Origin: a phage
DNA: 64,000 nucleotides
NCBI GenBank assembly: GCA_033648345.1
Contig: GCA_033648345.1_4121.1
Direction: 5' to 3' (one strand)
A program made the position numbers and the translations under genes. Shown piece by piece: positions 14,244 through 61,155 of the stretch. The notes beneath the pieces are model-generated. The model was not told where the DNA came from. It did not search any database and saw only the letters and a list, made by a program, of their open reading frames with translations. Every line of letters begins with the position of its first letter. Within the stretch, counting starts at the first letter, position 1.

Positions 14244-14244
14244 T

Positions 14245-38735: not shown

Positions 38736-39005
38736 ATGAATTACAAACATATACAATTCACTTATATGGAATTATTTAAATTACACCATAATCACAGAAG
38801 TACTAACACAATTAATAAAAATGCGTTTACTCATAAATTATGGTCAAATTACCTAGAAGAATTACGTGAGTATTTTATTGATACTGAAATTTTCATTAAT
38901 GGAAAAAAACGAAAGATACTTAGAGTCGATAGTTTTGGTGGTAGATTAGTACTTTCATATAAATTTGATAACGACTTATTCTCTGTTGATTTGGTGAATA
39001 TATGA
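38736..39005 (+). CDS. Family C small protein
   Basis: 89 aa; N-terminal HIQFTYMELF; paralog of the next four genes. Confidence 0.6.
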   Translation: MNYKHIQFTYMELFKLHHNHRSTNTINKNAFTHKLWSNYLEELREYFIDTEIFINGKKRKILRVDSFGGRLVLSYKFDNDLFSVDLVNI

Positions 39006-39262
39006 ATTATAAAGATTTCCAATTAACATTCAAGTGCATTCGTGACCTAGCAAATAAAAATAATAGTATATTTTTAGAAGATACATGTATTGAAATGATT
39101 AATATTGTGCGTGAGAGGATTAAAGAAAAATTCAGTACTGTAATTATCAACAACGATCATGCAGAATTTTCAGATATAATCATTAAGCTCGATGGTAAAG
39201 TAGAGGTACAGTTCTACACTGATTTTGGATTTACGAGTGTTCCTCTGGAGATATTCCCTTGA
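39002..39262 (+). CDS. Family C small protein
   Basis: 86 aa; DFQLTFKCI; ATGA overlap. Confidence 0.6.
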   Translation: MNYKDFQLTFKCIRDLANKNNSIFLEDTCIEMINIVRERIKEKFSTVIINNDHAEFSDIIIKLDGKVEVQFYTDFGFTSVPLEIFP

Positions 39263-39570
39263 AATTAAATTTGAATGATGTTCAATTCACGTATAAAAAT
39301 ATATATGGTTTGTATGACATGTATCTTTTTAGTGGGAAGATTGGTGAACATGTCGAATCAAAAGAATCACCATTTATTAATAATTACTATGATTACTTAG
39401 ATTCTATTGCTGAATATATAAAAAAGAATTACAGTACTTACACTGATGGAGATGATATATTTGAATATTCAGGTGTAAAATCTTATCAAGGTATTATCCA
39501 TGTAGAATTTCTTGAAAAAACTGATAGGGAATTTATGGAGATTAAAGTTATGAAGTTAACGGACCTATAA
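39259..39570 (+). CDS. Family C small protein
   Basis: 103 aa; DVQFTYKNIYGLY. Confidence 0.6.
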   Translation: MKLNLNDVQFTYKNIYGLYDMYLFSGKIGEHVESKESPFINNYYDYLDSIAEYIKKNYSTYTDGDDIFEYSGVKSYQGIIHVEFLEKTDREFMEIKVMKLTDL

Positions 39571-39580
39571 GAGTTGACAT

Positions 39581-39892
39581 ATGAATATTAATGATATACA
39601 ATTCACATACAAATTTTTGTATATCCAATACGCTACGGTTGATGCTGGAGAATATCTCTACGGTGAAATCTATCGTTCGGTATGGATAAAGTTTTTGGAT
39701 GAATTACATGAATATTACCATGATTTGTGTATAGTTCGTGATAATAAAATATACAAATTCCGCGATATTGTTAGTCATAGCGGTAAGCTACGATTGGAAT
39801 TAAGTACTGATAGTGATGTTGATTGGATTGGTGTAAATTTACTGGAGTTGGAGAATGAAAAACAACTTAAAGGAAATACAAGTATTTTATAA
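39581..39892 (+). CDS. Family C small protein
   Basis: 103 aa; DIQFTYKFLYIQY. Confidence 0.6.
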   Translation: MNINDIQFTYKFLYIQYATVDAGEYLYGEIYRSVWIKFLDELHEYYHDLCIVRDNKIYKFRDIVSHSGKLRLELSTDSDVDWIGVNLLELENEKQLKGNTSIL

Positions 39893-40139
39893 ATTCTTAT
39901 ACTTGTCATATGTAAAAGATGAGTACTATGAAAGTGTGTATTATTTTTTATGGCAACATTACCGTACTATAGTAAGAGATTCATATATAGGAAAATCTAT
40001 CATATCCAATGGTGAAAAATGTATATGTACTGATGTTGTTAGTTTTAATGGTTCTTTAACACTGTGTTTCAGATGCGATAATAATAGTGGGTCATTTTCA
40101 TTAAACGTATATCAGTTAGAAGGAATAAATTTTGAATAA
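39855..40139 (+). CDS. Family C small protein
   Basis: 94 aa; EIQVFYKFLYLSY. Confidence 0.6.
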   Translation: MKNNLKEIQVFYKFLYLSYVKDEYYESVYYFLWQHYRTIVRDSYIGKSIISNGEKCICTDVVSFNGSLTLCFRCDNNSGSFSLNVYQLEGINFE

Positions 40140-42748: not shown

Positions 42749-43438
42749 TTGATTAAAGATTTAGATAGAATTTTATATGTACTGAGGGGTGTAATTACAT
42801 TACAACCACAGGTTAATCGTATGGAGAGAGCCTTTGAATTAAAATCAAGAGAAACTCCATATTCACATATATCAAATGTAGTTGGATCATTCAGTACTGA
42901 AGACTCGCCTTATGATATTTGTGTATGTGAAGTACAGCCAAGTTCGGATCTTGGATTTGCTATTTTTGATAAAAATCAAAATCTCATTAGTATGTTTCAG
43001 TGCAATAATCCTTTTTGGAAAACATGCCTGTATCCAGAGTGGGCTATGCTTGATCCAACAAAGAGTTCCATTAAAGTATATGACTCTAAAAATGATGAAG
43101 TCGTTATTGATTTGGATGAGTCAATGTCAGAGGAAGAACACTTTCAGCTAATGATGATGCGTGCTATGCCTGAGTACCATGCAATGATTAACACGGTGCA
43201 ATACATTAAGGATACCATGCCATCATTGCGTACACATGAGTTTTGCCATCCTGTATTGTATGAACATTTGGATTTAGATTTCAGTACTATTAAATTTAAA
43301 GATAATGTTATTAATTACATTCAAGAGAATGTTAAATTTGATTTTATTAGTACAATGACAAATAATCCAAATACTAATTTCAGGCATCAGTACAATGAAT
43401 CTTTGTCTGGTGGTCGTGATACAACTTGGTGGAAATAA
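42749..43438 (+). CDS. Family B-like protein
   Basis: 229 aa; TTG start after RBS AGAGGA; motif SEEEHFQLMMMRAM. Confidence 0.5.
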   Translation: MIKDLDRILYVLRGVITLQPQVNRMERAFELKSRETPYSHISNVVGSFSTEDSPYDICVCEVQPSSDLGFAIFDKNQNLISMFQCNNPFWKTCLYPEWAMLDPTKSSIKVYDSKNDEVVIDLDESMSEEEHFQLMMMRAMPEYHAMINTVQYIKDTMPSLRTHEFCHPVLYEHLDLDFSTIKFKDNVINYIQENVKFDFISTMTNNPNTNFRHQYNESLSGGRDTTWWK

Positions 43439-43439
43439 T

Positions 43440-43703
43440 ATGAATATCCAAGATAGATTGCAATTGTTGCACACACTTGAAGAAGCTGCTTTTGAACTTG
43501 TTAATAAAATTGCACAAGAACTCCCAAAAGGAACCAAAGTTCGTGTTCGTGAAATGGATTATTTAACGGGAAAAATTGATGAAAAAGTTCTAACAGTGAT
43601 CAAAGTAACATACTATGAATCTGAGTTATCAATTCAATGTAAGTCGGATAATGGTTACGTTTCCTACTATGGCACAGATGTAGATATAGAGGTAATAAAA
43701 TGA
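43440..43703 (+). CDS. Family D small protein
   Basis: Track ORF 43395..43703; in-frame ATG at 43440; PKGTKVRVREMDY...VIKVTY pattern shared with family D. Confidence 0.5.
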   Translation: MNIQDRLQLLHTLEEAAFELVNKIAQELPKGTKVRVREMDYLTGKIDEKVLTVIKVTYYESELSIQCKSDNGYVSYYGTDVDIEVIK

Positions 43704-44842
43704 CCCTTTTACAAATATATGAAGATTTAATGCACTTATGTAATACCCGTGAGGCTTTCTTTTATGTGGATCATAAAAGTCCTGCTGGTGGAACGTATCG
43801 TGTATTCAGTTATCGTCTAGCATCATATACTGATTTCATGCAACCCAATGCATTAGAAACCCGTGGTTCTATGTGGGAAATTGATGAAGAAGGTAATATG
43901 ATTCGTTGTGCTGCTCGTACTATGAAAAAGTTCTTCAATGCTTACGAGAATCCTGCTACAATGTTCCCTGCTGATACCACATTCGATGACATTGCAGTAG
44001 TGATGCCTAAGTTGGATGGTTCAGTAATCAGTACTTACCGTGATAATGACGGTGTAATTCGTTGTAAATCACATACTGCATTGTATTCAGACCATGCGAT
44101 TAACAGTGCTCGTCTTCTCAATGAGAACCAAAATTTGTATCAATACATTGACGAAGCAGACCGTTTGGGCTATACTGTTAATCTGGAGTATACAAGTCCA
44201 GAGTACCGTATTGTATTACCATATCAGGTTGAACAATTATTTGTACTAAACGTTCGCAATCGTAAGAGTGGTGAACTATTATGTGGTTCTGCATTACGTA
44301 ATAAGTTCCCATGCCTTGCACAGTACAGTACTAACATGACAGGTAAAGATATTCATCACACTTTCCCTGCTCGTGCTACATTCAAAGAAAGTGTTGAAGA
44401 AGTTAAGAAAATGCTTGACATTGAAGGTTTTGTGTGCATCCTAAATAATGGTACAATGTGCAAAATCAAAACCGACTGGTATTGTTCTTTGCATTTAACG
44501 AAAGACAGTATTATAATCGATTCCCATTTATATGAAGCTGTATTAAATGGTTCGAGTGATGATTTAAAACAGTTGTTCAGTACTGACGAATATGCTACCC
44601 AAAAGATATTAAGAATGGAACAACTAGTCTTTTCGTGCTATAATGCTTTACAAGATGAAGTTGAAAGCTTCGTCAAGGAACACAAGCACTTGGAGCGAAA
44701 GGAATTCGCTAAGAAGGTTCAGGAGTGTTTAACTAATGAACTGAATCGTCAGGGCTTGGCCTTTGCAATGTACAACAATAAGAAAGTCGATTACAAAGAG
44801 ACTCTTATTAAGTACATGAAAATTGTACTAAAGGATTTTTAG
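43700..44842 (+). CDS. rnlA: RNA ligase 1 (T4 RnlA-like)
   Basis: 380 aa; N-terminal region closely matches T4 Rnl1 from memory (FFYxDxxSxxGxTYRxFSYxxASYxD...ALExRG); KxDG adenylation motif MPKLDGS; C-terminal KIKxDWY. Confidence 0.8.
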   Translation: MTLLQIYEDLMHLCNTREAFFYVDHKSPAGGTYRVFSYRLASYTDFMQPNALETRGSMWEIDEEGNMIRCAARTMKKFFNAYENPATMFPADTTFDDIAVVMPKLDGSVISTYRDNDGVIRCKSHTALYSDHAINSARLLNENQNLYQYIDEADRLGYTVNLEYTSPEYRIVLPYQVEQLFVLNVRNRKSGELLCGSALRNKFPCLAQYSTNMTGKDIHHTFPARATFKESVEEVKKMLDIEGFVCILNNGTMCKIKTDWYCSLHLTKDSIIIDSHLYEAVLNGSSDDLKQLFSTDEYATQKILRMEQLVFSCYNALQDEVESFVKEHKHLERKEFAKKVQECLTNELNRQGLAFAMYNNKKVDYKETLIKYMKIVLKDF

Positions 44843-44871
44843 TACTATCTAGCCTAGCACAAGGAGAAGTG

Positions 44872-45126
44872 ATGGCTAAACCTAAGTATAAAAATGACGG
44901 TTCCCTTTCTCCGACAGAATTCAGGAAAATACAAGAAGAAATCGATGAATTACAGCACAAACGCTCTAAGAAAGGTGTGAAGATTAGTAAGAAACGAATC
45001 GAGAATACTTTCGGGTGTAGTAGTACTGAATACAAGAAGAAAAGGAAACCAAAAGGTGTTAAGCCGAGAATACATGATGTAACTCGCTATACATCAAAAC
45101 GTGAAAATAAATTCGACCCACTATAA
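44872..45126 (+). CDS. Small highly basic protein
   Basis: Track ORF 44869 (GTG); ATG at 44872 after AAGGAGAAG; Lys/Arg-rich. Confidence 0.5.
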   Translation: MAKPKYKNDGSLSPTEFRKIQEEIDELQHKRSKKGVKISKKRIENTFGCSSTEYKKKRKPKGVKPRIHDVTRYTSKRENKFDPL

Positions 45127-45135
45127 GGAGTTCAT

Positions 45136-45372
45136 ATGAAAGTTGAAGTTCAGCATAGTATTGTTCAGGATATGTCAGTAGTTAAATTTCTTTCCTTGAA
45201 AGATTATTTCAGATGTATCAAGTTCCTAGAAGAATCTCAATTACAGTGGACCCCATTAAAGTACAGTTCATCCAATGATACTGCTAGTATTCGTTGTGAT
45301 GAATCTGTACTTGTGAAAATCTCCAAGCGATTTGGGATTGGGAAATACAATGATAAACAATGCACAAAGTAA
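45136..45372 (+). CDS. Hypothetical protein
   Basis: 78 aa track ORF. Confidence 0.5.
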   Translation: MKVEVQHSIVQDMSVVKFLSLKDYFRCIKFLEESQLQWTPLKYSSSNDTASIRCDESVLVKISKRFGIGKYNDKQCTK

Positions 45373-45661
45373 TTTACTATATATAAAGTCAGTAGAAGCT
45401 GAAATTAAAAATTCAGTACAAACTATCGTCGATGAAATGATTGACAAATACAAGAGCAATCTTATTGGAAAGAAAGTCAGATGTTGGGATTACACATTCA
45501 AACACTGGTACGATTCCGAGATTGTGAAAGTTGATGTGAATACTGATAGTAATGGTCTAATTAATGGTATTGCGTATATTGGTGTTTTAATACGCAAGGG
45601 AACACCACAGGAATGGCTCACATATCATAATATAGAGCATGTTAAATTTTTAGAGGATTAA
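45350..45661 (+). CDS. Family D small protein
   Basis: Track ORF 45332..45661; in-frame ATG at 45350; LIGKKVRCWDY...IVKVDV. Confidence 0.5.
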   Translation: MINNAQSNLLYIKSVEAEIKNSVQTIVDEMIDKYKSNLIGKKVRCWDYTFKHWYDSEIVKVDVNTDSNGLINGIAYIGVLIRKGTPQEWLTYHNIEHVKFLED

Positions 45662-45664
45662 AGG

Positions 45665-46597
45665 ATGCCAACTATCACACTAACAGTTGGATTGCCTGGG
45701 TGTGGTAAAACTACATGGGCAGTGCAAGAGATTAAAAAAGCCAAATCCAAGACTATCAACATCAACCGTGATGATATTCGTGAATCTATGGCTGGGTCAC
45801 ATGATGCTTACAAATTCAACGATGCTAATGAGCAGTACGTAACTAATTTACAGTTCAGTGCAGCAAATTCAGCAGCAGAGAATGGTTGGAACATCATCAT
45901 ATCCGATACGAACCTTAAACAACATTTCCGTAATCTATGGAAAGTATGGGCTATAGATAATGGTTATGATTACAAAGAAAAGAACTTCTATGATGATTTT
46001 GTACCTAATGAAGACCGTGGTGCAGATGTTCATGAATTCTTTAAGATTAAAGAGTTCGTAAAACTTTGTAAGAAATATAACCTCCAGCGTGAGCGTTCAG
46101 TACAAGATAATATCATTGACACTATGGCAGATACGTACTATTATAGTAAAGCATTGCACATTGGTTACTATGGTAATTCACGAGAAGCTGCTATTATCGT
46201 TGATATCGACGGTACTCTTGCTCATAAATGGGGCCGTAACCCGTTCGATGAAAGTACTGTACTCCAGGATACACCAGACGAAGAAGTTATTTTATCTGTT
46301 ATCGCTGAAGCAGTTTTTCATAAACGCAAGATTATCGTCATGAGTGGGCGTACTGAAGGGTGTCGTGCTGATACCGAACAGTGGCTTAAGAATTGGGGTG
46401 TTCCTTATGATGCGTTGTTTATGCGAGGCATCGATGACAAACGTCCTGATGATGTTGTAAAATTCGACCTGTACATGAAAAATGTGGTTGATCATTACGA
46501 TGTTAAAAAGGTTTATGATGATAGATCACAAGTTGTATTCATGTGGCGTAAGCTACTTGGGTTGAAAGTAATGCAAGTTGCTGAAGGTAATTTCTAA
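45665..46597 (+). CDS. pseT: Polynucleotide 5'-kinase / 3'-phosphatase (T4 Pnk-like)
   Basis: 310 aa; N-terminal P-loop GLPGCGKTTWA and NINRDD; C-terminal HAD phosphatase motif VDIDGTLA, VMSGR, KVYDDRSQVV; collinear with T4 Pnk from memory. Confidence 0.85.
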   Translation: MPTITLTVGLPGCGKTTWAVQEIKKAKSKTININRDDIRESMAGSHDAYKFNDANEQYVTNLQFSAANSAAENGWNIIISDTNLKQHFRNLWKVWAIDNGYDYKEKNFYDDFVPNEDRGADVHEFFKIKEFVKLCKKYNLQRERSVQDNIIDTMADTYYYSKALHIGYYGNSREAAIIVDIDGTLAHKWGRNPFDESTVLQDTPDEEVILSVIAEAVFHKRKIIVMSGRTEGCRADTEQWLKNWGVPYDALFMRGIDDKRPDDVVKFDLYMKNVVDHYDVKKVYDDRSQVVFMWRKLLGLKVMQVAEGNF

Positions 46598-46603
46598 TAC
46601 AAA

Positions 46604-46633
46604 AGGGATCATATATTGGTCCCTTTTTCTTTT
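46604..46633 (+). terminator. Rho-independent terminator
   Basis: AGGGATCA-TATAT-TGGTCCCT hairpin followed by TTTTTCTTTT, 7 nt after the pseT stop. Confidence 0.65.
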
Positions 46634-46646
46634 AAGGTACATTATA

Positions 46647-49739: not shown

Positions 49740-49993
49740 TGTTCAACACCGACTATTCACATTTGCGATATCTTATGTCTTTGGCTGATGATTTTATTAA
49801 TGATTTGAAGCCGAAGTATATTGGACAAGAAGTACGTTTGATAAACTCAAGGGGTTATGGGAAGTACATTATCGCTGATATGTATATTAGCGGTGGTGAA
49901 TGGCGTTTCAAAGTTAATACGTATCTTAAAGATGGTTCTTTTGCAGGTACACAAGTTACAAAACACACTAACATTATATGGTTGGAACAATAA
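49739..49993 (+). CDS. Family D small protein
   Basis: Track ORF 49664..49993; ATG at 49739 overlaps upstream stop (TAATG); YIGQEVRLINSRGYGKY...WRFKV. Confidence 0.5.
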   Translation: MFNTDYSHLRYLMSLADDFINDLKPKYIGQEVRLINSRGYGKYIIADMYISGGEWRFKVNTYLKDGSFAGTQVTKHTNIIWLEQ

Positions 49994-50736
49994 TGAAACA
50001 TTTTTTGGAAGTTACAGTACCGGATGATAAAGATTTATATATCGTTGGTGATTTACACGGTAATGGAAAACTGTGGGATGCTACCAAGAAAGAATTTGGC
50101 ATTACCAATAATGACTATGTTTTTTGTGTAGGTGATGTTATTGACCGTGGTGACCAGAATTCCAAACTACTGTTTGAATTCCTTTTCGGTGAAAACCGTT
50201 TTATGATTGCTGGGAACCACGAGATGATGTGTGTGGACTCCGAAACAATGAGGGATTGGTATCATTGCTGGCAAAGTAATGGTGGTGATAAATTTCTTGA
50301 TGAAGTTGGTGAGACAGGTATACAGTTCTTTCGTCAGTACTTAAAGGAACTCCCTATGATTATCCAAATCAATCACCGAGGATTGAAGATTGGACTAGTT
50401 CATGCTGGTGTTCCATTGGAATATACAACATGGGAACGTTTCGTTAGTGGGACAAAATCACTTAGTGCTGATATAATTGAGAAGTGCTTGTGGGAACGTG
50501 ATACATTCGACTACTGCAAGAAAAATAACACATATTACGTCCCTAGACTTGATGGTATCCATTGCGTCTTTAGTGGTCATACCGCAGTATCCGACCCACT
50601 CATTTATGGTAATCGTATCTGGATTGATAGTCAGTTCTTAACTGGTGATTTGACTCTTGCAACTCCCCAAAGTGGTGGGATGAGATACTTACGTAAAGAA
50701 AAAGATGAGTACTCATTTAACCGCTTCAAAAGGTAA
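49993..50736 (+). CDS. Ser/Thr protein phosphatase (lambda PPase-type metallophosphoesterase)
   Basis: Track ORF 49978..50736; ATG at 49993 overlaps upstream stop; motifs GDLHG, GDVIDRG, GNHE, GHT. Confidence 0.8.
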   Translation: MKHFLEVTVPDDKDLYIVGDLHGNGKLWDATKKEFGITNNDYVFCVGDVIDRGDQNSKLLFEFLFGENRFMIAGNHEMMCVDSETMRDWYHCWQSNGGDKFLDEVGETGIQFFRQYLKELPMIIQINHRGLKIGLVHAGVPLEYTTWERFVSGTKSLSADIIEKCLWERDTFDYCKKNNTYYVPRLDGIHCVFSGHTAVSDPLIYGNRIWIDSQFLTGDLTLATPQSGGMRYLRKEKDEYSFNRFKR

Positions 50737-50740
50737 TAAT

Positions 50741-51010
50741 ATGCATGATGTAGTTAAAAAATACTTAAATGATAGATATGTTGTGAAAAAATCTATTAAT
50801 TCTATCCTAAAAGACCATGCTAATCAAATACGTGAGATTCTATCAAAGAAACTTATTGGTTGCTCAGTTGAATTCAACTACAAAAAGAATGTGGTGAAGA
50901 GTGGAGTTATTAGTCGTGTAGTTGCTGTTTATGACCAAAATGTATATGTTGAAATTGAATATGATGGTAAATTATTACAATTAAGTACTGAAGATTTAAC
51001 ATTTTTATAA
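50741..51010 (+). CDS. Family D small protein
   Basis: Track ORF 50705..51010; in-frame ATG at 50741; LIGCSVEFNYKKN...VYVEIEY. Confidence 0.5.
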   Translation: MHDVVKKYLNDRYVVKKSINSILKDHANQIREILSKKLIGCSVEFNYKKNVVKSGVISRVVAVYDQNVYVEIEYDGKLLQLSTEDLTFL

Positions 51011-51020
51011 GGAAATAGAA

Positions 51021-51248
51021 ATGAAAGTAATTCAAGTTATGGTAGAAAAATACCAAACTGAAGATGGTCGTATTTTTGATTCAGCAAAACAAGCTGAACA
51101 CCATGAACGTATTATTTCTGGTACACGTAAAGTGTGCCCTACATGTAATGGTACACAACAAGTTCCATCTGAAGACTATCGCAGTTATTATGCTTGTCCA
51201 CATTGTGATGGTAAAGGGTTTGTAGAAAAACAAGAGGTATGGAAATGA
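51021..51248 (+). CDS. Small zinc-finger protein (DnaJ-type CxxCxGxG repeats)
   Basis: 75 aa; CPTCNGTQ and CPHCDGKG motifs. Confidence 0.55.
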   Translation: MKVIQVMVEKYQTEDGRIFDSAKQAEHHERIISGTRKVCPTCNGTQQVPSEDYRSYYACPHCDGKGFVEKQEVWK

Positions 51249-51658
51249 AATTATATTGCTTAACAAACATGTACTGCCAAGGTGTACAAGCTGGCATTCA
51301 AGCATTTCATGCTGGCATAAAACTAATTAAAGAATATGAAGGTACTGCTTTCAGTACTATTATTGATGAATGGTATTATGACCACGAAACTATTGTAGTA
51401 CTAAATGCTGGTGGTCATGATAAGTTAAATTCTTATTATGATGACCTTTGTAAGCAGGGAAAAGTGCCATTCGCTAAATTCAATGAAGCCGGATTAAATG
51501 ATGCAACTACATGTGTAGCAGTACTATGTACATCTGAAATGGTTGAAGACATGTCTGTTATGCGTATGAATCTTCCTGCTGGGGATCAACTAATGCAAGT
51601 AAAATATGGTGCATTGTTTAACACATTAAAAGCAATTAGCACAATGAGGACTGTTTGA
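51239..51658 (+). CDS. Hypothetical protein
   Basis: 139 aa track ORF; alternative ATG at 51245 gives ATGA overlap. Confidence 0.5.
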   Translation: MEMKLYCLTNMYCQGVQAGIQAFHAGIKLIKEYEGTAFSTIIDEWYYDHETIVVLNAGGHDKLNSYYDDLCKQGKVPFAKFNEAGLNDATTCVAVLCTSEMVEDMSVMRMNLPAGDQLMQVKYGALFNTLKAISTMRTV

Positions 51659-52857
51659 TGGATTTTCCAGAGAAGTTATTTGTGGCTCGTTCATATGTAA
51701 ATCATAACCAAGTTACTGGTTACATTATAGATGCCACAAAATCACACACAAAAGCGTTTGAGACTAAAAAAGAAAAGGCCGAGTACTGGGCTAAGAAAAA
51801 CAATCTACCTTCACTATGGATTGATAATGTGCCTACAATTGGGTTTTCTGTGGTACATAAGCTCACTGTTCATGCTCGCGAAACATACTTCACCATACGT
51901 CACCCTGAAGGTTTCGAGTTCTTGGTGAGTGCTAAAAACATGAACGACCTTATCATCAACAATGATATTGTTAAGGGTGTATTTGTTGAACCTATGTTCT
52001 TTAATAATAGTTTAGAACTAATTAACGGTAAAACTAAAACCTTTGCTAAATTGGTTGAGAAGGAGAATAAGAAAGAACATCAAAAAGAAGTTGTTTCTAA
52101 ATTGAAAGTGGGTGATGGTTTTAGACACAATAAGGAAGATTACTATTATTGTGGTAAAGTAAATGCTATTTGTATCAAGAAAACTAAAGAGTTTTCATTT
52201 TCTGATAAGAGTTCCAAGTATCACTTAGTATATAATACTACTCGTGGGACATATGCTCTTAATGCTCGTCTTGAAACTTATGCGTTAGAACCAAGTGCTG
52301 CACTGAATGTAAAAACTACAGTTCAAGATGAAATTGTTAAAGCTAATGCATTTTGGCAAAATATCCAACGAAATCGCAGTAACCCATTATGTGAAAGCAA
52401 TATTCCAGTACTGATAAGTGATAAGTCGTTTAAAGCACAAGATTTGAAAGTAAAGTACGAAGAAATCAATCCTGATGATATAATGAGTAATGGACGATTC
52501 AACGAGAACGTACCGTTCATGACTAAAGTTGGTGACCAAGCATATCGTGTTTTCTTTGGTGTAAAGAACAATACAACCAGAAGTTATTATGGTCGTAATG
52601 GTGATTATATTCTTCAATACACTGATACATTTGAACGATACAGTGCATATCCAGTTGAAATTGATGCTAATGGAATTATGACAATGGATGTGGATTTAAA
52701 CGAACATGTATCATTTGGTACATGGAATGGATACCGTTCTCCTTTCTTCCCACCAACTGAAAATAAAACAGCATCAACTCGTTACTACCAAGAAAAACCT
52801 TGTCACGTCCAGCTATCACTAAGTAATAAACTTTACATTGGAAAGTATTATCTATAA
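51655..52857 (+). CDS. Hypothetical protein (400 aa)
   Basis: Long track ORF with ATGA overlap; no recognisable motif. Confidence 0.6.
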   Translation: MMDFPEKLFVARSYVNHNQVTGYIIDATKSHTKAFETKKEKAEYWAKKNNLPSLWIDNVPTIGFSVVHKLTVHARETYFTIRHPEGFEFLVSAKNMNDLIINNDIVKGVFVEPMFFNNSLELINGKTKTFAKLVEKENKKEHQKEVVSKLKVGDGFRHNKEDYYYCGKVNAICIKKTKEFSFSDKSSKYHLVYNTTRGTYALNARLETYALEPSAALNVKTTVQDEIVKANAFWQNIQRNRSNPLCESNIPVLISDKSFKAQDLKVKYEEINPDDIMSNGRFNENVPFMTKVGDQAYRVFFGVKNNTTRSYYGRNGDYILQYTDTFERYSAYPVEIDANGIMTMDVDLNEHVSFGTWNGYRSPFFPPTENKTASTRYYQEKPCHVQLSLSNKLYIGKYYL

Positions 52858-52868
52858 GGGAATATACA

Positions 52869-54287
52869 ATGAGCATTTTAGCAATTCTTGAAAGCATTAA
52901 AAATACTAGCAGTACTCTGGGTAAAAAAGCTATCCTTGAACAAAACAAAGATAATCAAACATTACAAAAAGTACTGAAATATACACTAGACCCTTCAATT
53001 GTAAGTGGATATAAAAAGCTACCACAAGCTGATGATCTATACCAACATATGACATTAGACGAAGCAATTGATAAGCTAGAATGCATTTACAAACGTGGTG
53101 TGACCGGAAATGCTGGGCGTGACTTCATTTCTTCAGTACTGGGTTCTGTATCAGAAGATGACCAGGAAGTTCTTCGTAAAATGCTCACGAAGAACCTTGA
53201 TTGTGGTATCCAAGAAAAGAACTGTAATGATGTGTTCGGGAAAGGTTTCATCAAAGACGAACCATACATGCGTTGTTCTTTGATTGACAAAAAGACTGCA
53301 AAGAACATTAACTTCAAAGATTATGGTTATGCTATATCAGAAGTGAAGATGGATGGTCAGTACTTGAACCACGTTGTCATTAATGGTTCATTAACTTCTA
53401 CATCCCGTAATGGCAAACTATACGACTTCCTGGGTTGTCGTGATGGTGAAATGGCAGGTCTTGCTCACATCATCCAAAGTAAAGATGAACGTTTTAGTAG
53501 TGGTGTAGTCTTTATGGGTGAAGGTGTAGTACTGGACAATGATGGAGAAACCATTCTCCCACGCACTACTGGTAACGGTATCATTCAGAAAGCTGGTAAA
53601 GATAGCATCAGTCAAAATGAAGCAATGCGTACTGTATTCGTTCTATGGGATGTTGTTCCATATGATGCATTTTGTGAAGGTGTATGGAATGTAAAACGTA
53701 AAGAACGCCGCGAGATCTTAGTAGATGCAATTAACGAACTCGGTAGTGATTTTGTTCGTATGGTTGGATTCCGTAAAGTTCTAAACATCAAAGAAGCATT
53801 TGAGTACAATAGTGAACTAATGAACGAAGGTGAAGAGGGTTCAGTACTGAAATGTGAAGATGGTATCTGGAAATCTCACACTTCTCCTAAGCAATTGAAA
53901 ATGAAACTTAAAATGCAATTGGACTTGCGTATTGTTGGTTTCAATGAAGGTGAAGGTAAGCGTAAAGGTAGCCTTGGTTCTTTACAACTGGAAAGTGCTT
54001 GTGGTACATTGAAAGTTAATGTAGGTACTGGAATTAAAGAGAAAGACGCAGAATGGACGTTTAAAACCATTTGGGAAAGAATGCAAGAACTCATTGGTCA
54101 AGTAGTGACAGTAGAGTGCAATGATATTGTATTCGATAAGCGTACTGGTGAGCCATCACTATTTTTACCAGTGTTTATTGAATTTAGATTTGACAAAAAC
54201 ACCTGTGACGACTATACTCGTATCTTAGAAATTCGTGATAGTGCTGTTGAGGTGTTCTCTAATAGTATTCTTGAATCACTCGGTTAA
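52869..54287 (+). CDS. ATP-dependent DNA ligase
   Basis: 472 aa; RBS AAGGGAAT; KxDG adenylation motif EVKMDGQY and downstream nucleotidyltransferase/OB-fold pattern in a T4-ligase-sized protein. Confidence 0.8.
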   Translation: MSILAILESIKNTSSTLGKKAILEQNKDNQTLQKVLKYTLDPSIVSGYKKLPQADDLYQHMTLDEAIDKLECIYKRGVTGNAGRDFISSVLGSVSEDDQEVLRKMLTKNLDCGIQEKNCNDVFGKGFIKDEPYMRCSLIDKKTAKNINFKDYGYAISEVKMDGQYLNHVVINGSLTSTSRNGKLYDFLGCRDGEMAGLAHIIQSKDERFSSGVVFMGEGVVLDNDGETILPRTTGNGIIQKAGKDSISQNEAMRTVFVLWDVVPYDAFCEGVWNVKRKERREILVDAINELGSDFVRMVGFRKVLNIKEAFEYNSELMNEGEEGSVLKCEDGIWKSHTSPKQLKMKLKMQLDLRIVGFNEGEGKRKGSLGSLQLESACGTLKVNVGTGIKEKDAEWTFKTIWERMQELIGQVVTVECNDIVFDKRTGEPSLFLPVFIEFRFDKNTCDDYTRILEIRDSAVEVFSNSILESLG

Positions 54288-54306
54288 TCATTTATAGGAG
54301 GTAATT

Positions 54307-55098
54307 ATGAAATTTGTTGTAACGTCAGACGTACACGGTGGCACTGATTACCTCCATAGTGGTGATTACAGTGATACAGTACTGATTATTGCAGGGGACT
54401 TTGATGAAGTTAAACGCAGTCGTTATCGTACTGGTATCGAATCCCTGTGCAAGCAGTTCAAGAATGTAGTACTGGTTCCTGGTAATCATGAGTACTACGG
54501 TTCAAACATTCACAAGACTAATAAAGTACTGTCCGATATGCAAGATGAGATTCCAAATTTCATCTTTTTGCAAAACAAATTTGTATGGCTGGATGGTGTA
54601 CTGCTGGTTGGTAGTACACTGTGGACTGACTTTGATAAAGGCAACGCACTGGTTAAGTTTGATGCTCAACAAAAGATGAATGATTATAAACACATTCGTC
54701 ATGGAACAACATCAGAACCGTGGAAACGTAAGCTCAAACCTGATGATGTTGAGTTCATGCATCATCAGGATAAACAATTTATCAAAAATTCAGTTAACAC
54801 AGTTCGTCTAATGAATGATAATGATTTCAAGGTTGTGGTGGTAACACATCATGCACCAAGTTATCAGAGTGTATCTCCGAGATACAAGAATGACTCACTG
54901 AATGGATGTTATTGTTCTGATATGGACCAGTACATCGAAGATTTGGGTGCTGATGTTTGGATTCATGGTCACGTTCATAGTAGCTTTGACTACAACATTG
55001 GGAAAACTCGTATCATTTGTAATCCAAGAGGTTATGAATCTTACAGTGGTGCATGTGAGAACTTCGATTACGATCCTAAATTTGTATTTGAAATCTAA
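54307..55098 (+). CDS. Calcineurin-like metallophosphoesterase
   Basis: 263 aa; RBS AGGAGG; motifs SDVHGG, AGDFDE, PGNHEYYG, THHAP, GHVH. Confidence 0.7.
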   Translation: MKFVVTSDVHGGTDYLHSGDYSDTVLIIAGDFDEVKRSRYRTGIESLCKQFKNVVLVPGNHEYYGSNIHKTNKVLSDMQDEIPNFIFLQNKFVWLDGVLLVGSTLWTDFDKGNALVKFDAQQKMNDYKHIRHGTTSEPWKRKLKPDDVEFMHHQDKQFIKNSVNTVRLMNDNDFKVVVVTHHAPSYQSVSPRYKNDSLNGCYCSDMDQYIEDLGADVWIHGHVHSSFDYNIGKTRIICNPRGYESYSGACENFDYDPKFVFEI

Positions 55099-55107
55099 GG
55101 TAATGTT

Positions 55108-55503
55108 ATGATACATACACTTCACATTGATGACAAAATGCTTGTTATATTGGGTAGCTGTCATTTGTATCGACGATGGGGTATGCGTATACTATACTCT
55201 TGTGATAAAACCCAATACTACAATCCTGATGGTACTGGCACTGTGATGAAAGATAGGTATAACTTCACCAGTGATGTAAGACAAGCAGACGATTTAGATT
55301 CATTTGTGGGAAAGGTGTATGTTCTTGTACATGATGATAGTCGTGGTGATGTGTTACCATTCAGTACTTTATCAATTAATACGTTCTTTAAATACGAACA
55401 ATTTTCAAATTCACTAAGAATGATTGAGATTGATTTTGATGACATCCCAGTTGGTATACGATATGAATTTCTTCATGCTCTTGCGTCAATAGGGGTGTAC
55501 TGA
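55108..55503 (+). CDS. Hypothetical protein
   Basis: 131 aa track ORF. Confidence 0.5.
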   Translation: MIHTLHIDDKMLVILGSCHLYRRWGMRILYSCDKTQYYNPDGTGTVMKDRYNFTSDVRQADDLDSFVGKVYVLVHDDSRGDVLPFSTLSINTFFKYEQFSNSLRMIEIDFDDIPVGIRYEFLHALASIGVY

Positions 55504-55886
55504 TGGAAAATATCGTTGTGTATGTAATTGAGTACAATGATAAAATAAAGTACGTAATTAATGGTTATAAACATTACTCCAGTGCAGCCAGAAAGCTGGA
55601 AATATATTCAAAAGAAGCAAGAAACTACTGCTTAGATGATGATTCAGTTGAGGTTTGGATTGATGGAAATGCAGAGTACTTTGATGCTAACTTCTATGAA
55701 GATCTTGACAAATCAAATGAATTATACATTTATGTAGAAAATGAACGTTATTACACAAATTCTTTGTTTGACATTACCGACTCTACGGTGTATGATAATG
55801 CTATGGTTAAGTTGTTAAAGATTGACCACGATATGTTTAATAAACATACAATTTGCGGTTTACTCGATTTTTTAAGAAACTTGTAG
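55503..55886 (+). CDS. Hypothetical protein
   Basis: 127 aa track ORF, ATGA-type overlap. Confidence 0.5.
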   Translation: MENIVVYVIEYNDKIKYVINGYKHYSSAARKLEIYSKEARNYCLDDDSVEVWIDGNAEYFDANFYEDLDKSNELYIYVENERYYTNSLFDITDSTVYDNAMVKLLKIDHDMFNKHTICGLLDFLRNL

Positions 55887-55911
55887 ACAAATACGAACAC
55901 TGTGATATAAT
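55884..55911 (+). promoter_or_regulatory. Promoter TAGACA-N16-TGaTATAAT (extended -10)
   Basis: Same architecture as the element at 59410; 35 nt upstream of clpP RBS GAGGAAAA. Confidence 0.55.
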
Positions 55912-55945
55912 ACTCACATCAATGAAACAATAGAGGAAAATAACA

Positions 55946-56641
55946 ATGGTTGAACAATTCAATTTTGGTGGTTATGCTGGTGGTGAAGTTCGCAACATTT
56001 CTATTCCTTATGTAGTTGAAAAAGTTAATGGTGCAGAACGTACTTATGACCTAGCATCTCGTATGATGCAAGACCGTATCATTTTCCTTGATACTGACTT
56101 CAATGACCAAATGGCACATATCATCAAGCAACAATTGGTGTGGTTGGATTCTCAGGGTTCGGAACCAATTACCTTCTACATTAGTTCTCCTGGTGGTTCA
56201 GTACACGCAGGTTTGGGTATCGCTGACATTGCTAAGTCTTGTGTATCTCCTATCCGTACAGTAGTAATGGGTTATGCAGCATCAATGGGTTGTTATACTC
56301 AATCAGTAGTTGGTACTAAAGGTTTCCGTCTTGGCGGGAAGCGTTCTTACTTCATGTGTCACCAAGTAAGTTCCGGTACTCAGGGTTTGATTACTGATCA
56401 GAAGATTTCTTTGAAACACTCTGATGCATTGAACACACTATTGACGAAAGAAATTGCTGAAGCAGTTGGTGTATCACACGAACAACTACTGAAAGATGCG
56501 GATCGTGACCTGTGGTTGAACGCTGAAGAAGCACTCGAATACGGTGAACATGGTTTCATTGATGGTATCATCCTCGGACCACGCAACGAAGAAGGTAAGT
56601 ATCTCGTCAAACGTCGCGGTGGCGTTGAAGAGTGGGTCTAA
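55946..56641 (+). CDS. clpP: ATP-dependent Clp protease proteolytic subunit (ClpP)
   Basis: 231 aa; collinear with E. coli ClpP from memory: RIIFL, ISSPGGSV, catalytic-Ser context GYAASMG, His context MCHQ, EALEYG. Confidence 0.8.
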   Translation: MVEQFNFGGYAGGEVRNISIPYVVEKVNGAERTYDLASRMMQDRIIFLDTDFNDQMAHIIKQQLVWLDSQGSEPITFYISSPGGSVHAGLGIADIAKSCVSPIRTVVMGYAASMGCYTQSVVGTKGFRLGGKRSYFMCHQVSSGTQGLITDQKISLKHSDALNTLLTKEIAEAVGVSHEQLLKDADRDLWLNAEEALEYGEHGFIDGIILGPRNEEGKYLVKRRGGVEEWV

Positions 56642-56653
56642 TTTGAATTTCAT

Positions 56654-56983
56654 TTGATGCCTCATTTGGGGCATCTTATTTCTGGAGATTTTATGAAAGT
56701 TCTTGTACGTAATAATACTGAAGTCAATGATGTGTTAGATGATTCAGAGTTTATTAATACCGCATTAGATCAGATTAGTGCAGTGGCTATTGAATTGAAA
56801 GGTGTTGACGAGGCAGAACGAGTACTCAATGGTTTTTCTATTGTTCTCGAATTAATGCAAGAAGTTCTTATTAAAAAGAACATTAATCCAATTAACGCAG
56901 TTCAACACGCAGAAGCTATGCGTCAAGAACATGGCACATTCTCAGATAAAAAATTCATCAGTACTGACGAGGGGAAAGAATAA
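56654..56983 (+). CDS. Hypothetical protein
   Basis: 109 aa track ORF immediately after clpP. Confidence 0.5.
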   Translation: MMPHLGHLISGDFMKVLVRNNTEVNDVLDDSEFINTALDQISAVAIELKGVDEAERVLNGFSIVLELMQEVLIKKNINPINAVQHAEAMRQEHGTFSDKKFISTDEGKE

Positions 56984-56984
56984 T

Positions 56985-57431
56985 ATGTCTAATGCACAAT
57001 ACAAAGAAGGTTCTGCCGCGTTTAAAAACAAAGTAGTTTTTAACAATGAACAGCTAAAATCACAGCACCCATTATTCCGTCAAGGATATCGTGCTGCACA
57101 AGCTGAAGCTATGAAGAAAAATAACGTAACCTTCCCAACAACTCTGTATGATATTCCCAAACGTCCTTCAGTGTTTAAAGCAGAATGGACTGACATTATG
57201 GCAGCAACTAAACGTCCTCGTTTTGCTAAACTTCACACTGATGAAGGTCGCTGGATGTTGATGGGTATTATGAAAGCAGTTGAGAAACAGGCACATACTA
57301 TTGTTCGTTACAAAGACGTTGTAGCTATGGTTGATAAAGCATTTGATCTTATTCTCCAGTACGGTTATGATGAAGGTGTACTAACTGTTTCCGATTGTGA
57401 GCAGTACCAGTACACTCCATTCCAGAAATAA
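56985..57431 (+). CDS. Hypothetical protein
   Basis: Track ORF 56931..57431; in-frame ATG at 56985 after RBS GAGGGGAAAG. Confidence 0.5.
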   Translation: MSNAQYKEGSAAFKNKVVFNNEQLKSQHPLFRQGYRAAQAEAMKKNNVTFPTTLYDIPKRPSVFKAEWTDIMAATKRPRFAKLHTDEGRWMLMGIMKAVEKQAHTIVRYKDVVAMVDKAFDLILQYGYDEGVLTVSDCEQYQYTPFQK

Positions 57432-57438
57432 TTACTTA

Positions 57439-57467
57439 GGGAATCTTTCATGATTCCCATTTTATTT
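57439..57467 (+). terminator. Rho-independent terminator
   Basis: GGGAATC-TTTCAT-GATTCCC perfect 7 bp hairpin followed by ATTTTATTT. Confidence 0.7.
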
Positions 57468-57550
57468 GCTGCATATCAAAAATTATTGATCAAAAATTGA
57501 TCCATACAAGGTAAATACCCAAGGTGTAATTGTTAATAGGGTAGGTGGAT

Positions 57551-58069
57551 ATGCAGCAATATAAATTATCTGAAGATCAAAGTGATTTATTTTTCAATCA
57601 CATGTTTTTAATTGATGAATTTGCCGAAAGTTTAAATTCAGAGGCAATAGCTATAGTTAAAAAGTGGTATTCTTGCTATAACAAGAACAAAAAATGGTAT
57701 TGGTTGAATAGAAATTTAAAATCATTTCTAGGAACAATAACTAGTACTGATAGTATTGAACTAATATATAGTTCCATTGGCTATAGTTACTTAACCAAGC
57801 ATAATAATACGTCAATAGAGTCTGGCTTTAAAATCAAGCGTCTAATGAAATTGACGGGATTGAGTGCAGAAACTATACAAAACGATACAGAAAAGTTATG
57901 GAAGATTATAGAATTCATGAATAAAAATATGTCATTTATATATAGAAACTATGATATATTCACTGATGTACGACAATTTTATAAGAGTCCATATTCACTT
58001 AATGAGAAATATTTCCGACACATGGAATTATGCTCAACTATGGTTGATGAATGGAATTTAGAGGATTAA
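57551..58069 (+). CDS. Hypothetical protein
   Basis: Track ORF 57545 (GTG); ATG at 57551 after AGGGTAGG. Confidence 0.5.
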   Translation: MQQYKLSEDQSDLFFNHMFLIDEFAESLNSEAIAIVKKWYSCYNKNKKWYWLNRNLKSFLGTITSTDSIELIYSSIGYSYLTKHNNTSIESGFKIKRLMKLTGLSAETIQNDTEKLWKIIEFMNKNMSFIYRNYDIFTDVRQFYKSPYSLNEKYFRHMELCSTMVDEWNLED

Positions 58070-58070
58070 T

Positions 58071-58598
58071 ATGAAATACACTGCTCTTAGCCCAACTGAT
58101 ACTAAAGTATGGTTGAGTAATTTGAACAAAACTATTATTTTAACCAAAAAAGTGATATCAACAGCTAATTCATTAGATGTAAATATCAAGAAGAATGTTC
58201 TTAAATATCATCACCGAAGTAAACTTAGTACTTGGTACTCCAATATTTTTTACGGCTTATATGGGATGGATGATATTTTAATTGGTACATCATCTGGGTC
58301 ATGCTTCAGTGCTGGTGGTATGTGCTTTATGGATTTGGGTTTTTCATTATCCGATGAAGAAATCGAGTTTAAACAATTCCGTGACAAGTTACTGGGTTCG
58401 GGTGATATCAAGTTCTGTACAGAATTAATGGGAGCATGGGACGTTTATGCAGCGAAACCATTTGACATTGAAGAATCAGATGTGCTAAACTACCTTCGTG
58501 TTCTTAAAATACATTCGAACTGTAAAACCAAATTACAATCCCTAGGAGTATATGATGAAACACTTGACGTGGTTGAAGATAGCCGAAGTCGTGGCTGA
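58071..58598 (+). CDS. Hypothetical protein
   Basis: 175 aa track ORF. Confidence 0.5.
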   Translation: MKYTALSPTDTKVWLSNLNKTIILTKKVISTANSLDVNIKKNVLKYHHRSKLSTWYSNIFYGLYGMDDILIGTSSGSCFSAGGMCFMDLGFSLSDEEIEFKQFRDKLLGSGDIKFCTELMGAWDVYAAKPFDIEESDVLNYLRVLKIHSNCKTKLQSLGVYDETLDVVEDSRSRG

Positions 58599-59028: not shown

Positions 59029-59291
59029 CTTTGACTTTCTTGATTTTAGGTATTCCATTTGCAGTTGTGATTCTTGTACTCTTAGTGATGATGGTATTAA
59101 ATGATAATACTACTCCACCAGTGATGCGTAATCATGAAGTACGATTTTCAGCACAAAACAACAAGTACTACATTGTAAATTGTTTAACTTGTAAAGAGTA
59201 TAAAGTAACTGGTAAATTTGGTTTTACCATTTATTATAAAGACCGTGTTGAAGCTGACATGATTTGTCAGAAACTTAATACGGTAGAATAA
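59025..59291 (+). CDS. Small membrane protein
   Basis: 88 aa; GTG start; N-terminal helix LILGIPFAVVILVLLVMMVL. Confidence 0.5.
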   Translation: MTLTFLILGIPFAVVILVLLVMMVLNDNTTPPVMRNHEVRFSAQNNKYYIVNCLTCKEYKVTGKFGFTIYYKDRVEADMICQKLNTVE

Positions 59292-59320
59292 AAAAAGGAG
59301 CCATAAGGCTCCTTTTTCTT
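59292..59320 (+). terminator. Rho-independent terminator
   Basis: A-tract, AGGAGCC-ATAA-GGCTCCT hairpin, then TTTTTCTTTT. Confidence 0.75.
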
Positions 59321-61124: not shown

Positions 61125-61155
61125 GAATAATAATTATAAAGAGAGAGTATATCTG

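What the first reader, a model, noticed from the sequence alone, without database searches (positions are those of the whole stretch)
43700..46633. T4-type tRNA repair pair (RNA ligase 1 and polynucleotide kinase/phosphatase) closed by a terminator
RnlA and Pnk together repair anticodon-loop breaks made by host anticodon nucleases (PrrC-type) in T4. Both are present here with high motif-level similarity to the T4 proteins, separated by three small genes (one of family D), and followed immediately by a strong terminator. Their presence implies the host range includes strains with tRNA-targeting defence, and places the small genes between them under suspicion of related function.
Basis: partly seen in the sequence, partly recalled or inferred. 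Interest (0 to 1): 0.5.

Follow-up and report, generated by a model that had tools for sequence, protein, structure and literature searches.

The report
Phage tRNA repair genes, already annotated
This stretch of a giant E. coli phage carries intact copies of the two phage T4 enzymes that mend cut tRNAs, which is already annotated in sister genomes; the only new lead is a small unknown gene that always travels with the kinase and is sometimes fused to it.

Summary
The window is an Asteriusvirus jumbo coliphage, 99.4% identical to WPEC5, Ecwhy_1 and fEgEco12. It carries five tightly packed, co-directional genes:
- rnlA (43700-44842)
- an 84-aa basic gene
- a 78-aa gene (s78)
- a 103-aa gene
- pnk (45665-46597)

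A hairpin plus U-tract terminator follows at 46601-46637.

Both enzymes are 38% identical to T4 Rnl1 and Pnk. They keep every catalytic residue I checked, including Lys104 of KxDG and Asp180/Asp182 of DxDGT. The one exception is motif Ia of the ligase, where T4 Lys119 is His, a substitution shared by this phage clade.

GenBank records already name both genes, and the phAPEC6 paper already suggests they counter Prr. The finding is therefore correct but known.

Of the three small genes:
- **The 103-aa gene** is variable, and absent from four Salmonella isolates.
- **s78** is more conserved than the enzymes (67-70% against 58-64%). It lies immediately upstream of pnk or overlaps it in every Mimasvirus genome and metagenomic contig examined; in Asteriusvirus coliphages and RaK2, small genes separate them. 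It is fused in frame to pnk in two Salmonella phages, so it may be an accessory partner of Pnk.

The inference about host range is untested.

The parts
43395..43703 (+). Small gene (102 aa, PHROG 28139, unknown function) directly upstream of rnlA. Its stop overlaps the rnlA start.
   Evidence: ORF; PHROG hit; the phmmer network links it to 45350-45661 through RaK2 ORF463.
43700..44842 (+). rnlA: T4-type RNA ligase 1 (380 aa), with the adenylyltransferase domain and the Rnl1-specific C-terminal domain. The AMP-accepting lysine is K104, in K104-L-D-G107.
   Evidence: In a 150-sequence family alignment, R55, K77, F79, K104, D106, G107, E163, E242, G243, K255, K257 and Y261 are all kept. Motif Ia reads K123-S124-H125, where T4 has K117-S118-K119.
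44872..45126 (+). s85: 84-aa very basic protein (pI 10.1, 25 Lys+Arg), PHROG 15306, unknown function. It is conserved directly after rnlA in Rak2-like phages.
   Evidence: It is 59% identical to CBB gp084 and 28% to RaK2 ORF465. The AlphaFold model has low confidence (pLDDT 68): helical with a disordered basic tail.
45136..45372 (+). s78: 78-aa protein, PHROG 14730, unknown function, with a compact beta-beta-alpha-beta-beta-alpha domain (residues 1-70). It is the most conserved gene of the cluster. It lies immediately upstream of pnk or overlaps it in the Mimasvirus genomes and metagenomic contigs examined (small genes intervene in Asteriusvirus coliphages and RaK2), and it is fused in frame to pnk in two Salmonella isolates.
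45350..45661 (+). It is dispensable and is swapped between strains.
   Evidence: G17/121Q carry two genes here, one only 34% identical to this one. The gene is deleted in the SD Salmonella phages and absent in CBB and metagenomic relatives.
45665..46597 (+). pnk (pseT): bifunctional polynucleotide 5'-kinase / 3'-phosphatase (310 aa). It has the P-loop G9-LPGCGK15-T16 and the phosphatase nucleophile D180 in D180-I-D182-G-T184. It carries a clade-specific insertion of about 20 aa at residues ~108-132.
   Evidence: In a 121-sequence family alignment, K15, T16, D36, R39, R142 (= T4 R126), D180, D182, R191, R229, D262 and D286 are all kept.
46601..46637 (+). Intrinsic terminator: 11-bp stem, 5-nt loop, then TCTTTT. 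It starts 3 nt after the pnk stop codon.
   Evidence: The G17 record annotates a terminator at the same place. A hairpin plus U-tract sits at the same position after pnk in CBB and XbC2; it is less clear in RaK2.

Best explanation
This is the RNA 'healing and sealing' module of a Rak2-like jumbo phage (genus Asteriusvirus). It is homologous to, and in the same gene order as, T4 rnlA ... pseT.

Inferred mechanism, from what is established for T4:
1. [quoted passage not shown]
2. Pnk heals both ends. Its C-terminal DxDxT phosphatase (nucleophile Asp180) removes the 3' phosphate. Its N-terminal P-loop kinase (Lys15, Asp36, Arg39, Arg142) phosphorylates the 5'-OH.
3. Rnl1 seals the break through Lys104-AMP and AppRNA intermediates. 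Its C-terminal domain directs it to tRNA.

The five genes are tightly packed and co-directional, and the terminator after pnk marks the 3' end of the unit.

What is shown and what is inferred:
- Shown here: homology, domain architecture, conservation of the catalytic residues, conserved gene order and a conserved terminator position.
- Inferred: enzymatic activity, tRNA as the substrate and an anti-defence role.
- Likely but unproven: the 78-aa protein, and perhaps the 84-aa basic protein, work with Pnk.
For: - Profile and structure-database matches to T4 Rnl1 and T4 Pnk, including an NCBIfam equivalog score above its cut-off.
- 38% identity to each T4 protein over the full length.
- All checked catalytic residues of both Pnk domains are kept against a family alignment of 121 Pnk sequences. 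All checked Rnl1 residues except T4 Lys119 are kept against a 150-sequence alignment (window, T4 and 148 Rnl1 representatives).
- The Rnl1 C-terminal domain is present. PMC6379707 states that this domain gives T4 Rnl1 its specificity for anticodon-loop breaks.
- T4 has the same order and orientation: rnlA, four unrelated genes, then pseT.
- The module is conserved in CBB, RaK2, XbC2 and metagenomic contigs while its flanking genes differ. In a more distant relative, rnlA directly overlaps pnk.
- The terminator is positionally conserved.
- GenBank records annotate both genes. The phAPEC6 paper proposes the anti-Prr role. Jumbo-phage RNA repair by Rnl1 plus PNK-HAD has been surveyed in PMC7824862.
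Against: - There is no functional data for any Rak2-like phage.
- T4 Lys119 of motif Ia is His in this clade. The family alignment has Lys in 143 of 150 sequences, Arg in 4 and His in 3. From my memory of Wang et al. 2003 (J Biol Chem 278:29454), which I could not retrieve, K119A abolishes overall ligation at the RNA-adenylylation step. [quoted passage not shown] The ligase may therefore differ kinetically, although the substitution is fixed in a clade that is otherwise under strong constraint.
- No tRNA gene or other RNA element lies in the window.
- Nothing shows that natural hosts carry an anticodon nuclease.
- T4 Rnl1 has a second, non-catalytic role in tail-fibre attachment, which could contribute to retention of the gene.
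Confidence: 0.8

Rival explanations
1. The pair is a general nucleic-acid end-repair kit rather than a dedicated anti-anticodon-nuclease tRNA repair system. It might reseal phage mRNAs or rRNA cut by host toxin RNases, or Pnk's 3'-phosphatase might serve DNA metabolism.
For: - The enzymes act on generic 5'-OH and 3'-phosphate ends.
- DNA-metabolism genes lie downstream in the sister genome: DNA ligase, dCMP deaminase, a metallophosphoesterase.
- Jumbo phages carry varied combinations of RNA ligases, which has been suggested to reflect different RNase threats (PMC7824862).
Against: - The Rnl1-specific C-terminal domain, which confers tRNA anticodon-loop specificity in T4, is retained (PMC6379707). 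Tyr246 of T4 is invariant in the family alignment.
- Tight linkage of ligase and kinase/phosphatase across genera fits a two-step RNA pathway.
Confidence: 0.12
2. Rnl1 is kept mainly for a non-catalytic role such as tail-fibre attachment (as for T4 gp63), and its ligase activity is weakened by the Lys-to-His change in motif Ia.
For: - His replaces the Lys that is present in 143 of 150 family sequences.
- T4 and sister-phage records annotate the protein as a tail-fibre attachment catalyst.
Against: - Every other checked catalytic residue is kept and is invariant or nearly so across the family, which would not be expected if catalysis were dispensable.
- The gene stays linked to an intact pnk in all relatives examined.
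- A more distant relative also has 'KSH' and overlaps pnk directly.
Confidence: 0.05
3. The 78-aa and 84-aa genes are unrelated passengers. Their position between rnlA and pnk reflects only shared ancestry of one phage clade, and the fusions to pnk in Salmonella isolates are neutral accidents or assembly errors.
For: - In T4 the genes between rnlA and pseT are functionally unrelated.
- All 71 genomes that carry s78 belong to one clade.
- The four SD phages come from one study and show four different junctions.
- T4 pseT is dispensable on ordinary laboratory hosts (my own knowledge).
- No fold match ties s78 to RNA repair.
- A relative with the same Pnk insertion has no s78 next to pnk.
Against: - s78 is more conserved than both enzymes: 70/67% against 58/64% and 58/63%.
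- The rnlA-s85-s78-pnk core persists while the flanking genes change.
- s78 overlaps the pnk start by 13 to 44 nt in several lineages.
- In SD-1_S14 pnk has lost its own start codon, so by that assembly it can be made only as the fusion.
Confidence: 0.55

Closest known systems
Phage T4 RnlA (gp63, RNA ligase 1) and PseT (polynucleotide kinase/phosphatase), the anti-PrrC tRNA restoration pathway
   Same: - Both proteins have the same domain architecture as their T4 counterparts and are 38% identical to them.
- All checked catalytic residues are kept except T4 Lys119.
- Gene order and orientation are the same, with rnlA upstream of pseT and small genes in between.
   Different: - The intervening genes are unrelated. 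T4 has alc, two spanins and pseT.1; the window has three small unknown genes.
- Motif Ia has His in place of Lys.
- Pnk carries an insertion of about 20 aa in the kinase domain.
- The host phage is a ~350-380 kb jumbo phage.
rnlA-pnk clusters of other Rak2-like jumbo phages (PBECO4, 121Q, phAPEC6, G17; CBB, GAP32; RaK2, K64-1)
   Same: - DNA is 92-99% identical within Asteriusvirus, and both genes are already annotated there.
- Across genera the enzymes are 58-64% identical, the rnlA-s85-s78-pnk core is the same and a terminator follows pnk.
   Different: Only the variable slot differs. The window has one D-family gene, G17/121Q have two, RaK2 has three small genes of undetermined family, CBB has one unrelated gene between s85 and s78, and the Salmonella SD phages have none.
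Fungal/plant tRNA ligase Trl1 and bacterial Pnkp/Hen1 RNA repair systems
   Same: Same logic: heal the ends with a kinase plus a phosphoesterase, then seal with an Rnl1-like adenylyltransferase (PMC6379707).
   Different: - Trl1 is a single polypeptide with a cyclic phosphodiesterase domain and a different C-terminal domain, and it needs a 2'-phosphate.
- Bacterial Pnkp uses a metallophosphoesterase and a Hen1 methyltransferase.
- Neither feature is present here.

Membership tests
T4 Rnl1 family of ATP-dependent RNA ligases | Motif I KxDG with the AMP-accepting lysine | tested here: met
   K104-L-D-G107 aligns with T4 K99-E-D-G102. Lys and Asp are invariant in 150 of 150 family sequences.
T4 Rnl1 family of ATP-dependent RNA ligases | Nucleotidyltransferase motifs IV (EG...) and V (KxK), and the Rnl1-specific upstream residues Arg54, Lys75 and Phe77 | tested here: met
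   E242-G243, K255, K257, R55, K77 and F79 are all present.
T4 Rnl1 family of ATP-dependent RNA ligases | Motif Ia Ser-Lys (T4 S118-K119) | tested here: not met
   The window has S124-H125. The family column has Lys in 143 of 150 sequences, Arg in 4 and His in 3. His is shared by CBB, RaK2 and representatives P0041 and P0043. This is a clade-level variant and not a loss of family membership: the NCBIfam equivalog cut-off is still passed.
T4 Rnl1 family of ATP-dependent RNA ligases | Rnl1-specific C-terminal (tRNA-specificity) domain | tested here: met
   Pfam PF20819 T4_Rnl1_C, residues 268-379, E = 2.6e-16.
T4 Rnl1 family of ATP-dependent RNA ligases | RNA ligase activity on anticodon-loop breaks | not testable with these tools
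   Needs biochemistry.
T4 Pnkp (bifunctional 5'-kinase / 3'-phosphatase) | N-terminal P-loop kinase with Lys15, Ser/Thr16, Asp35, Arg38 and Arg126 | tested here: met
   K15, T16, D36, R39 and R142 are present. R142 aligns with T4 R126 only in the 121-sequence family alignment, where Arg occupies 118 of 121 positions; the pairwise alignment misplaced it.
T4 Pnkp (bifunctional 5'-kinase / 3'-phosphatase) | C-terminal DxDxT acylphosphatase with the Asp165 nucleophile, Asp167, Arg176, Arg213, Asp254 and Asp278 | tested here: met
   D180, D182, T184, R191, R229, D262 and D286 are present and invariant in 121 of 121 sequences. Pfam HAD_PNKP matches at 5.8e-43.
T4 anti-PrrC tRNA restoration system | Ligase and kinase/phosphatase encoded together in one phage genome | tested here: met
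   Both lie within 2.9 kb on the same strand.
T4 anti-PrrC tRNA restoration system | A host anticodon nuclease is active during infection, and the cleaved tRNA is restored by the phage enzymes | not testable with these tools
   No host data. The role has been suggested in the literature for the sister phage phAPEC6 but has not been shown (PMC7247149).
Rho-independent (intrinsic) terminator | G+C-containing hairpin immediately followed by a U-tract, downstream of a stop codon | tested here: met
   46601-46627 stem-loop plus TCTTTT; -14.4 kcal/mol, z = -3.6. The position is conserved in G17, CBB and XbC2. Termination activity itself was not tested.

The most novel reading that the evidence does not exclude
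The 78-aa protein (45136-45372) may be a previously unrecognised accessory subunit of the Rak2-like phage RNA repair module. It would bind Pnk as a targeting, regulatory or bridging factor. The 84-aa basic protein may be an RNA-binding helper.

The case rests on these points:
- s78 is more conserved than either enzyme.
- tblastn finds s78 in 71 phage records, and a Pnk segment specific to this clade also in 71 records with the same breakdown by host genus. The record lists were not intersected one by one.
- It sits immediately upstream of pnk or overlaps it in the Mimasvirus genomes and metagenomic contigs examined.
- It is fused in frame to pnk in two Salmonella isolates, one of which lacks a separate pnk start codon.

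Its fold has no significant structural neighbour.
Probability: 0.35. Interest if true: 0.5.

Novelty: already known. Interest (0 to 1): 0.22.

Why it matters
As stated, the finding adds nothing new. Both genes are named in the public records of this phage genus, and their likely anti-Prr role has been published. It is a sound annotation and a useful marker that this phage invests in countering attacks on tRNA.

Two details would interest RNA-repair specialists:
- A clade-wide His in place of the motif Ia lysine of Rnl1, which is a natural test of that residue's role.
- A small, highly conserved protein coupled to Pnk or fused to it. If it proves to be a partner, it would be the first accessory factor described for the T4-type healing enzyme.

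Tests of anticodon-nuclease defences (PrrC, RloC, Cas13a) against these therapeutic-candidate jumbo coliphages should take this module into account.

Tried and rejected
- **Paralogues of the third small gene inside the window.** BLASTP all-against-all, phmmer and an HMM seeded with the G17 orthologue found nothing. Only a network that includes RaK2 ORF463 links it to 43395-43703.
- **Small genes against T4 neighbours.** Comparison with alc, pseT.1-3, cd.1-5, 30.x and 31.x gave no similarity.
- **Family searches for the small genes.** Pfam at E <= 10 and NCBIfam at E <= 1 gave nothing credible.
- **Distant homologues.** s78 has only 35 clusters, all at least 58% identical in the alignment. s85 has only 5.
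- **s85 model.** Confidence was too low for a fold search.
- **Idea that s78 recognises the clade-specific Pnk insertion.** Each is found in 71 phage records with the same host-genus breakdown. A metagenomic relative, however, has the insertion but no s78 within 9 kb, and its rnlA overlaps pnk directly. I dropped this as specific evidence.
- **RNA scans.** The tRNA and Rfam scans of the window were empty.
- **Primary paper.** The T4 Rnl1 mutagenesis paper is not in the library, so the statement about K119 rests on my memory.
Full report
**What the window is.** The 3.9 kb around the finding is 99.4% identical to Escherichia phages WPEC5, Ecwhy_1 and fEgEco12. It is 92-98% identical to about 30 other jumbo coliphages and Salmonella phages of 310-386 kb, genus Asteriusvirus (PBECO4, 121Q, phAPEC6, G17). 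Most of those records already annotate 'RNA ligase (and tail fiber protein attachment catalyst)' and 'polynucleotide kinase' at the matching positions.

**Checking the observation.** All genes lie on the + strand and are tightly packed:
- a 102-aa gene (43395-43703) whose stop overlaps the rnlA start
- rnlA, 43700-44842
- an 84-aa gene, 44872-45126
- a 78-aa gene, 45136-45372
- a 103-aa gene, 45350-45661
- pnk, 45665-46597

Three nucleotides after the pnk stop there is an 11-bp hairpin (46601-46627) followed by TCTTTT. It folds at -14.4 kcal/mol with z = -3.6, and none of 200 shuffles folds as well. The G17 record annotates a terminator at the same place. A hairpin plus U-tract also follows pnk in Pectobacterium phage CBB and Xanthomonas phage XbC2 (UUCG loops), and less clearly in RaK2. 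The terminator is therefore a conserved feature and not a chance match.

**The ligase.** The 380-aa protein matches Pfam RNA_lig_T4_1 and T4_Rnl1_C, PHROG 562 (2e-107) and the NCBIfam equivalog TIGR02308 (288 bits, cut-off 242). Its best solved structure is T4 Rnl1 (1e-56). It is 38% identical to T4 RnlA.

I aligned it with T4 and 148 representatives from a library-wide HMMER search. The residues equivalent to T4 Arg54, Lys75, Phe77, Lys99, Asp101, Gly102, Glu159, Glu227, Gly228, Lys240, Lys242 and Tyr246 are all present, and all are invariant or nearly so in the family.

There is one exception. T4 Lys119 of motif Ia is His125 in the window. That column has Lys in 143 of 150 sequences, Arg in 4 and His in 3. 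The His is shared by CBB, RaK2 and two representatives, so it is a clade trait.

From memory of Wang et al. 2003, which the library does not hold, K119A blocks the RNA-adenylylation step. [quoted passage not shown] I read the change as a variant worth testing and not as loss of function, because everything else is under tight constraint.

**The kinase/phosphatase.** The 310-aa protein matches Pfam HAD_PNKP (5.8e-43) and AAA_33, PHROG 505 (3.5e-94) and the T4 Pnk structure 1ltq (5.8e-38). It is 38% identical to T4 PseT.
- The kinase residues Lys15, Thr16 (Ser in T4), Asp36 and Arg39 are kept.
- The phosphatase residues Asp180, Asp182, Thr184, Arg191, Arg229, Asp262 and Asp286 are kept.
- The pairwise alignment appeared to lose T4 Arg126. 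A 121-sequence family alignment places window Arg142 in that column, where Arg occupies 118 of 121 positions.
- The Rak2-like clade carries an extra ~20 residues (about 108-132) in the kinase domain that T4 lacks.

**Comparison with T4 and other relatives.** T4 has the same order and orientation: rnlA, then alc, pseT.3, pseT.2 and pseT.1, then pseT. None of those four genes resembles the window's small genes, and none has a role in RNA repair. Position alone is therefore weak evidence of function.

The same module is present in CBB (Mimasvirus), RaK2 (Alcyoneusvirus), XbC2 and several metagenomic contigs, while the genes flanking it differ. In a more distant metagenomic relative (44% identical ligase, also 'KSH'), rnlA overlaps pnk directly with nothing in between.

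**The three small genes.** None has a Pfam or NCBIfam match.

1. *The 103-aa gene ('family D').* This is the variable element.
   - G17 and 121Q carry two genes in its place, one only 34% identical.
   - CBB and the metagenomic contigs lack it.
   - Four Salmonella Asteriusviruses have deleted it.
   - Direct searches find no paralogue in the window. A phmmer network joins it to the gene just upstream of rnlA through RaK2 ORF463, so the family assignment is weakly supported.
   - It is unlikely to be part of the repair function.

2. *The 84-aa protein.* It is very basic (pI 10.1) and is predicted to be helical with a disordered tail, at low confidence. It follows rnlA in all relatives examined, at 59% identity in CBB and 28% in RaK2.

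3. *The 78-aa protein (s78).* This one stands out.
   - It is 70% and 67% identical to its CBB and RaK2 orthologues. The ligase scores 58% and 64%, and the kinase 58% and 63%.
   - The 5.8-billion-protein collection holds only 35 clusters of it, all at least 58% identical.
   - In the phage collection it occurs in 71 records. A Pnk segment specific to this clade also occurs in 71 records with the same breakdown by host genus. I did not intersect the two record lists one by one.
   - In CBB it overlaps the pnk start by 13 nt, and in the four metagenomic loci examined (two distinct gene arrangements) by 44 nt.
   - The four Salmonella phages join it to pnk with four different junctions. SD-15_S21 has an in-frame fusion of 383 aa. 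SD-1_S14 has an in-frame fusion of 378 aa in which pnk has lost its own Met-Pro, so by that assembly Pnk can be made only as the fusion. SD-2 and SD-6 have out-of-frame overlaps.

*Caveats on s78.* All carriers belong to one clade. The fusions come from one study and could be neutral or artefactual. The relative has the Pnk insertion without an adjacent s78.

**Most likely mechanism.** The established T4 pathway is restated in PMC12409363, PMC7824862 and PMC6379707, and in the T4 rnlA record note. On that basis, Pnk removes the 2',3'-cyclic or 3' phosphate through Asp180 and phosphorylates the 5'-OH. Rnl1 then seals the anticodon loop through Lys104-AMP. The homology, residues, architecture and synteny are shown here. 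Activity, substrate and the anti-defence role are inferred.

**Rival readings.**
- General end repair of other RNAs or DNA is possible. It is disfavoured because the tRNA-specificity domain is retained.
- A ligase-dead role for Rnl1 in tail-fibre attachment is unlikely, given the conservation of the active site.

**Verdict.** The finding is a correct, well-supported identification of a known and already annotated system. Its interest is low. The residual novelty lies in the conserved s78-Pnk coupling and in the His variant of motif Ia.

Noticed in passing
window 43700-44842 (Rnl1 residue 125): Motif Ia of the ligase reads K-S-H where T4 has K-S-K. The column has Lys in 143 of 150 family sequences, and His only in this jumbo-phage clade and one more distant relative.
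   Followed up: yes
window 45665-46597 (Pnk residues ~108-132): There is a clade-specific insertion of about 20 aa (FYDDFVPNEDRGADVHEFFKIKEF) in the kinase domain. It is absent from T4 Pnk and from most homologues, and it is present and longer in a metagenomic relative, L016.
   Followed up: partly
L007:2138-3289, L009:2138-3274, L010:2138-3287, L011:2138-3279 (Salmonella phages SD-15, SD-1, SD-2, SD-6): Four sibling Salmonella Asteriusviruses have lost the 103-aa gene. They join the 78-aa gene to pnk with four different junctions: two in-frame fusions and two out-of-frame overlaps. This could be real nested deletions or assembly noise.
   Followed up: yes
L008:3885-4625 (Escherichia virus TH47): A 246-aa ORF is inserted right after pnk and replaces the terminator region. 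Its Pfam matches to SegE GIY-YIG and NUMOD3 are weak and below the cut-offs. The last ~20 residues of Pnk differ there, which looks like a homing-endonuclease footprint.
   Followed up: partly
window 263-6060, 4272-22302, 14245-22784, 38736-40139: There are large arrays of paralogous small genes, mostly tandem and all on the + strand: a 21-member family of ~70-95 aa proteins, an 11-member family, an 8-member family and a 4-member family (BLASTP clustering).
   Followed up: no
window 42749-43438; 27093-27674; 27686-28237: The 229-aa gene two genes upstream of rnlA (PHROG 32531) has two paralogues about 15 kb away.
   Followed up: no
window ~49980-64000 (seen through the WPEC5 record, L017): Downstream neighbours include a NinI-like phosphatase, a T4 gp30-like ATP-dependent DNA ligase, a metallophosphoesterase, dCMP deaminase, a Sir2-like deacylase, a Nudix hydrolase and PhoH. 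This loosely echoes the T4 neighbourhood rnlA-pseT-cd-31-30.
   Followed up: no
L016:4001-6086 (metagenomic contig SRR29457796_392485): A more distant phage has rnlA overlapping pnk by 23 nt with no small genes between them. The pair lies next to NAPRTase, PRPP synthetase, a PLD-like protein and thymidine kinase genes.
   Followed up: partly
window 1-64000: There are no tRNA genes and no Rfam family hits anywhere in the 64 kb window.
   Followed up: yes
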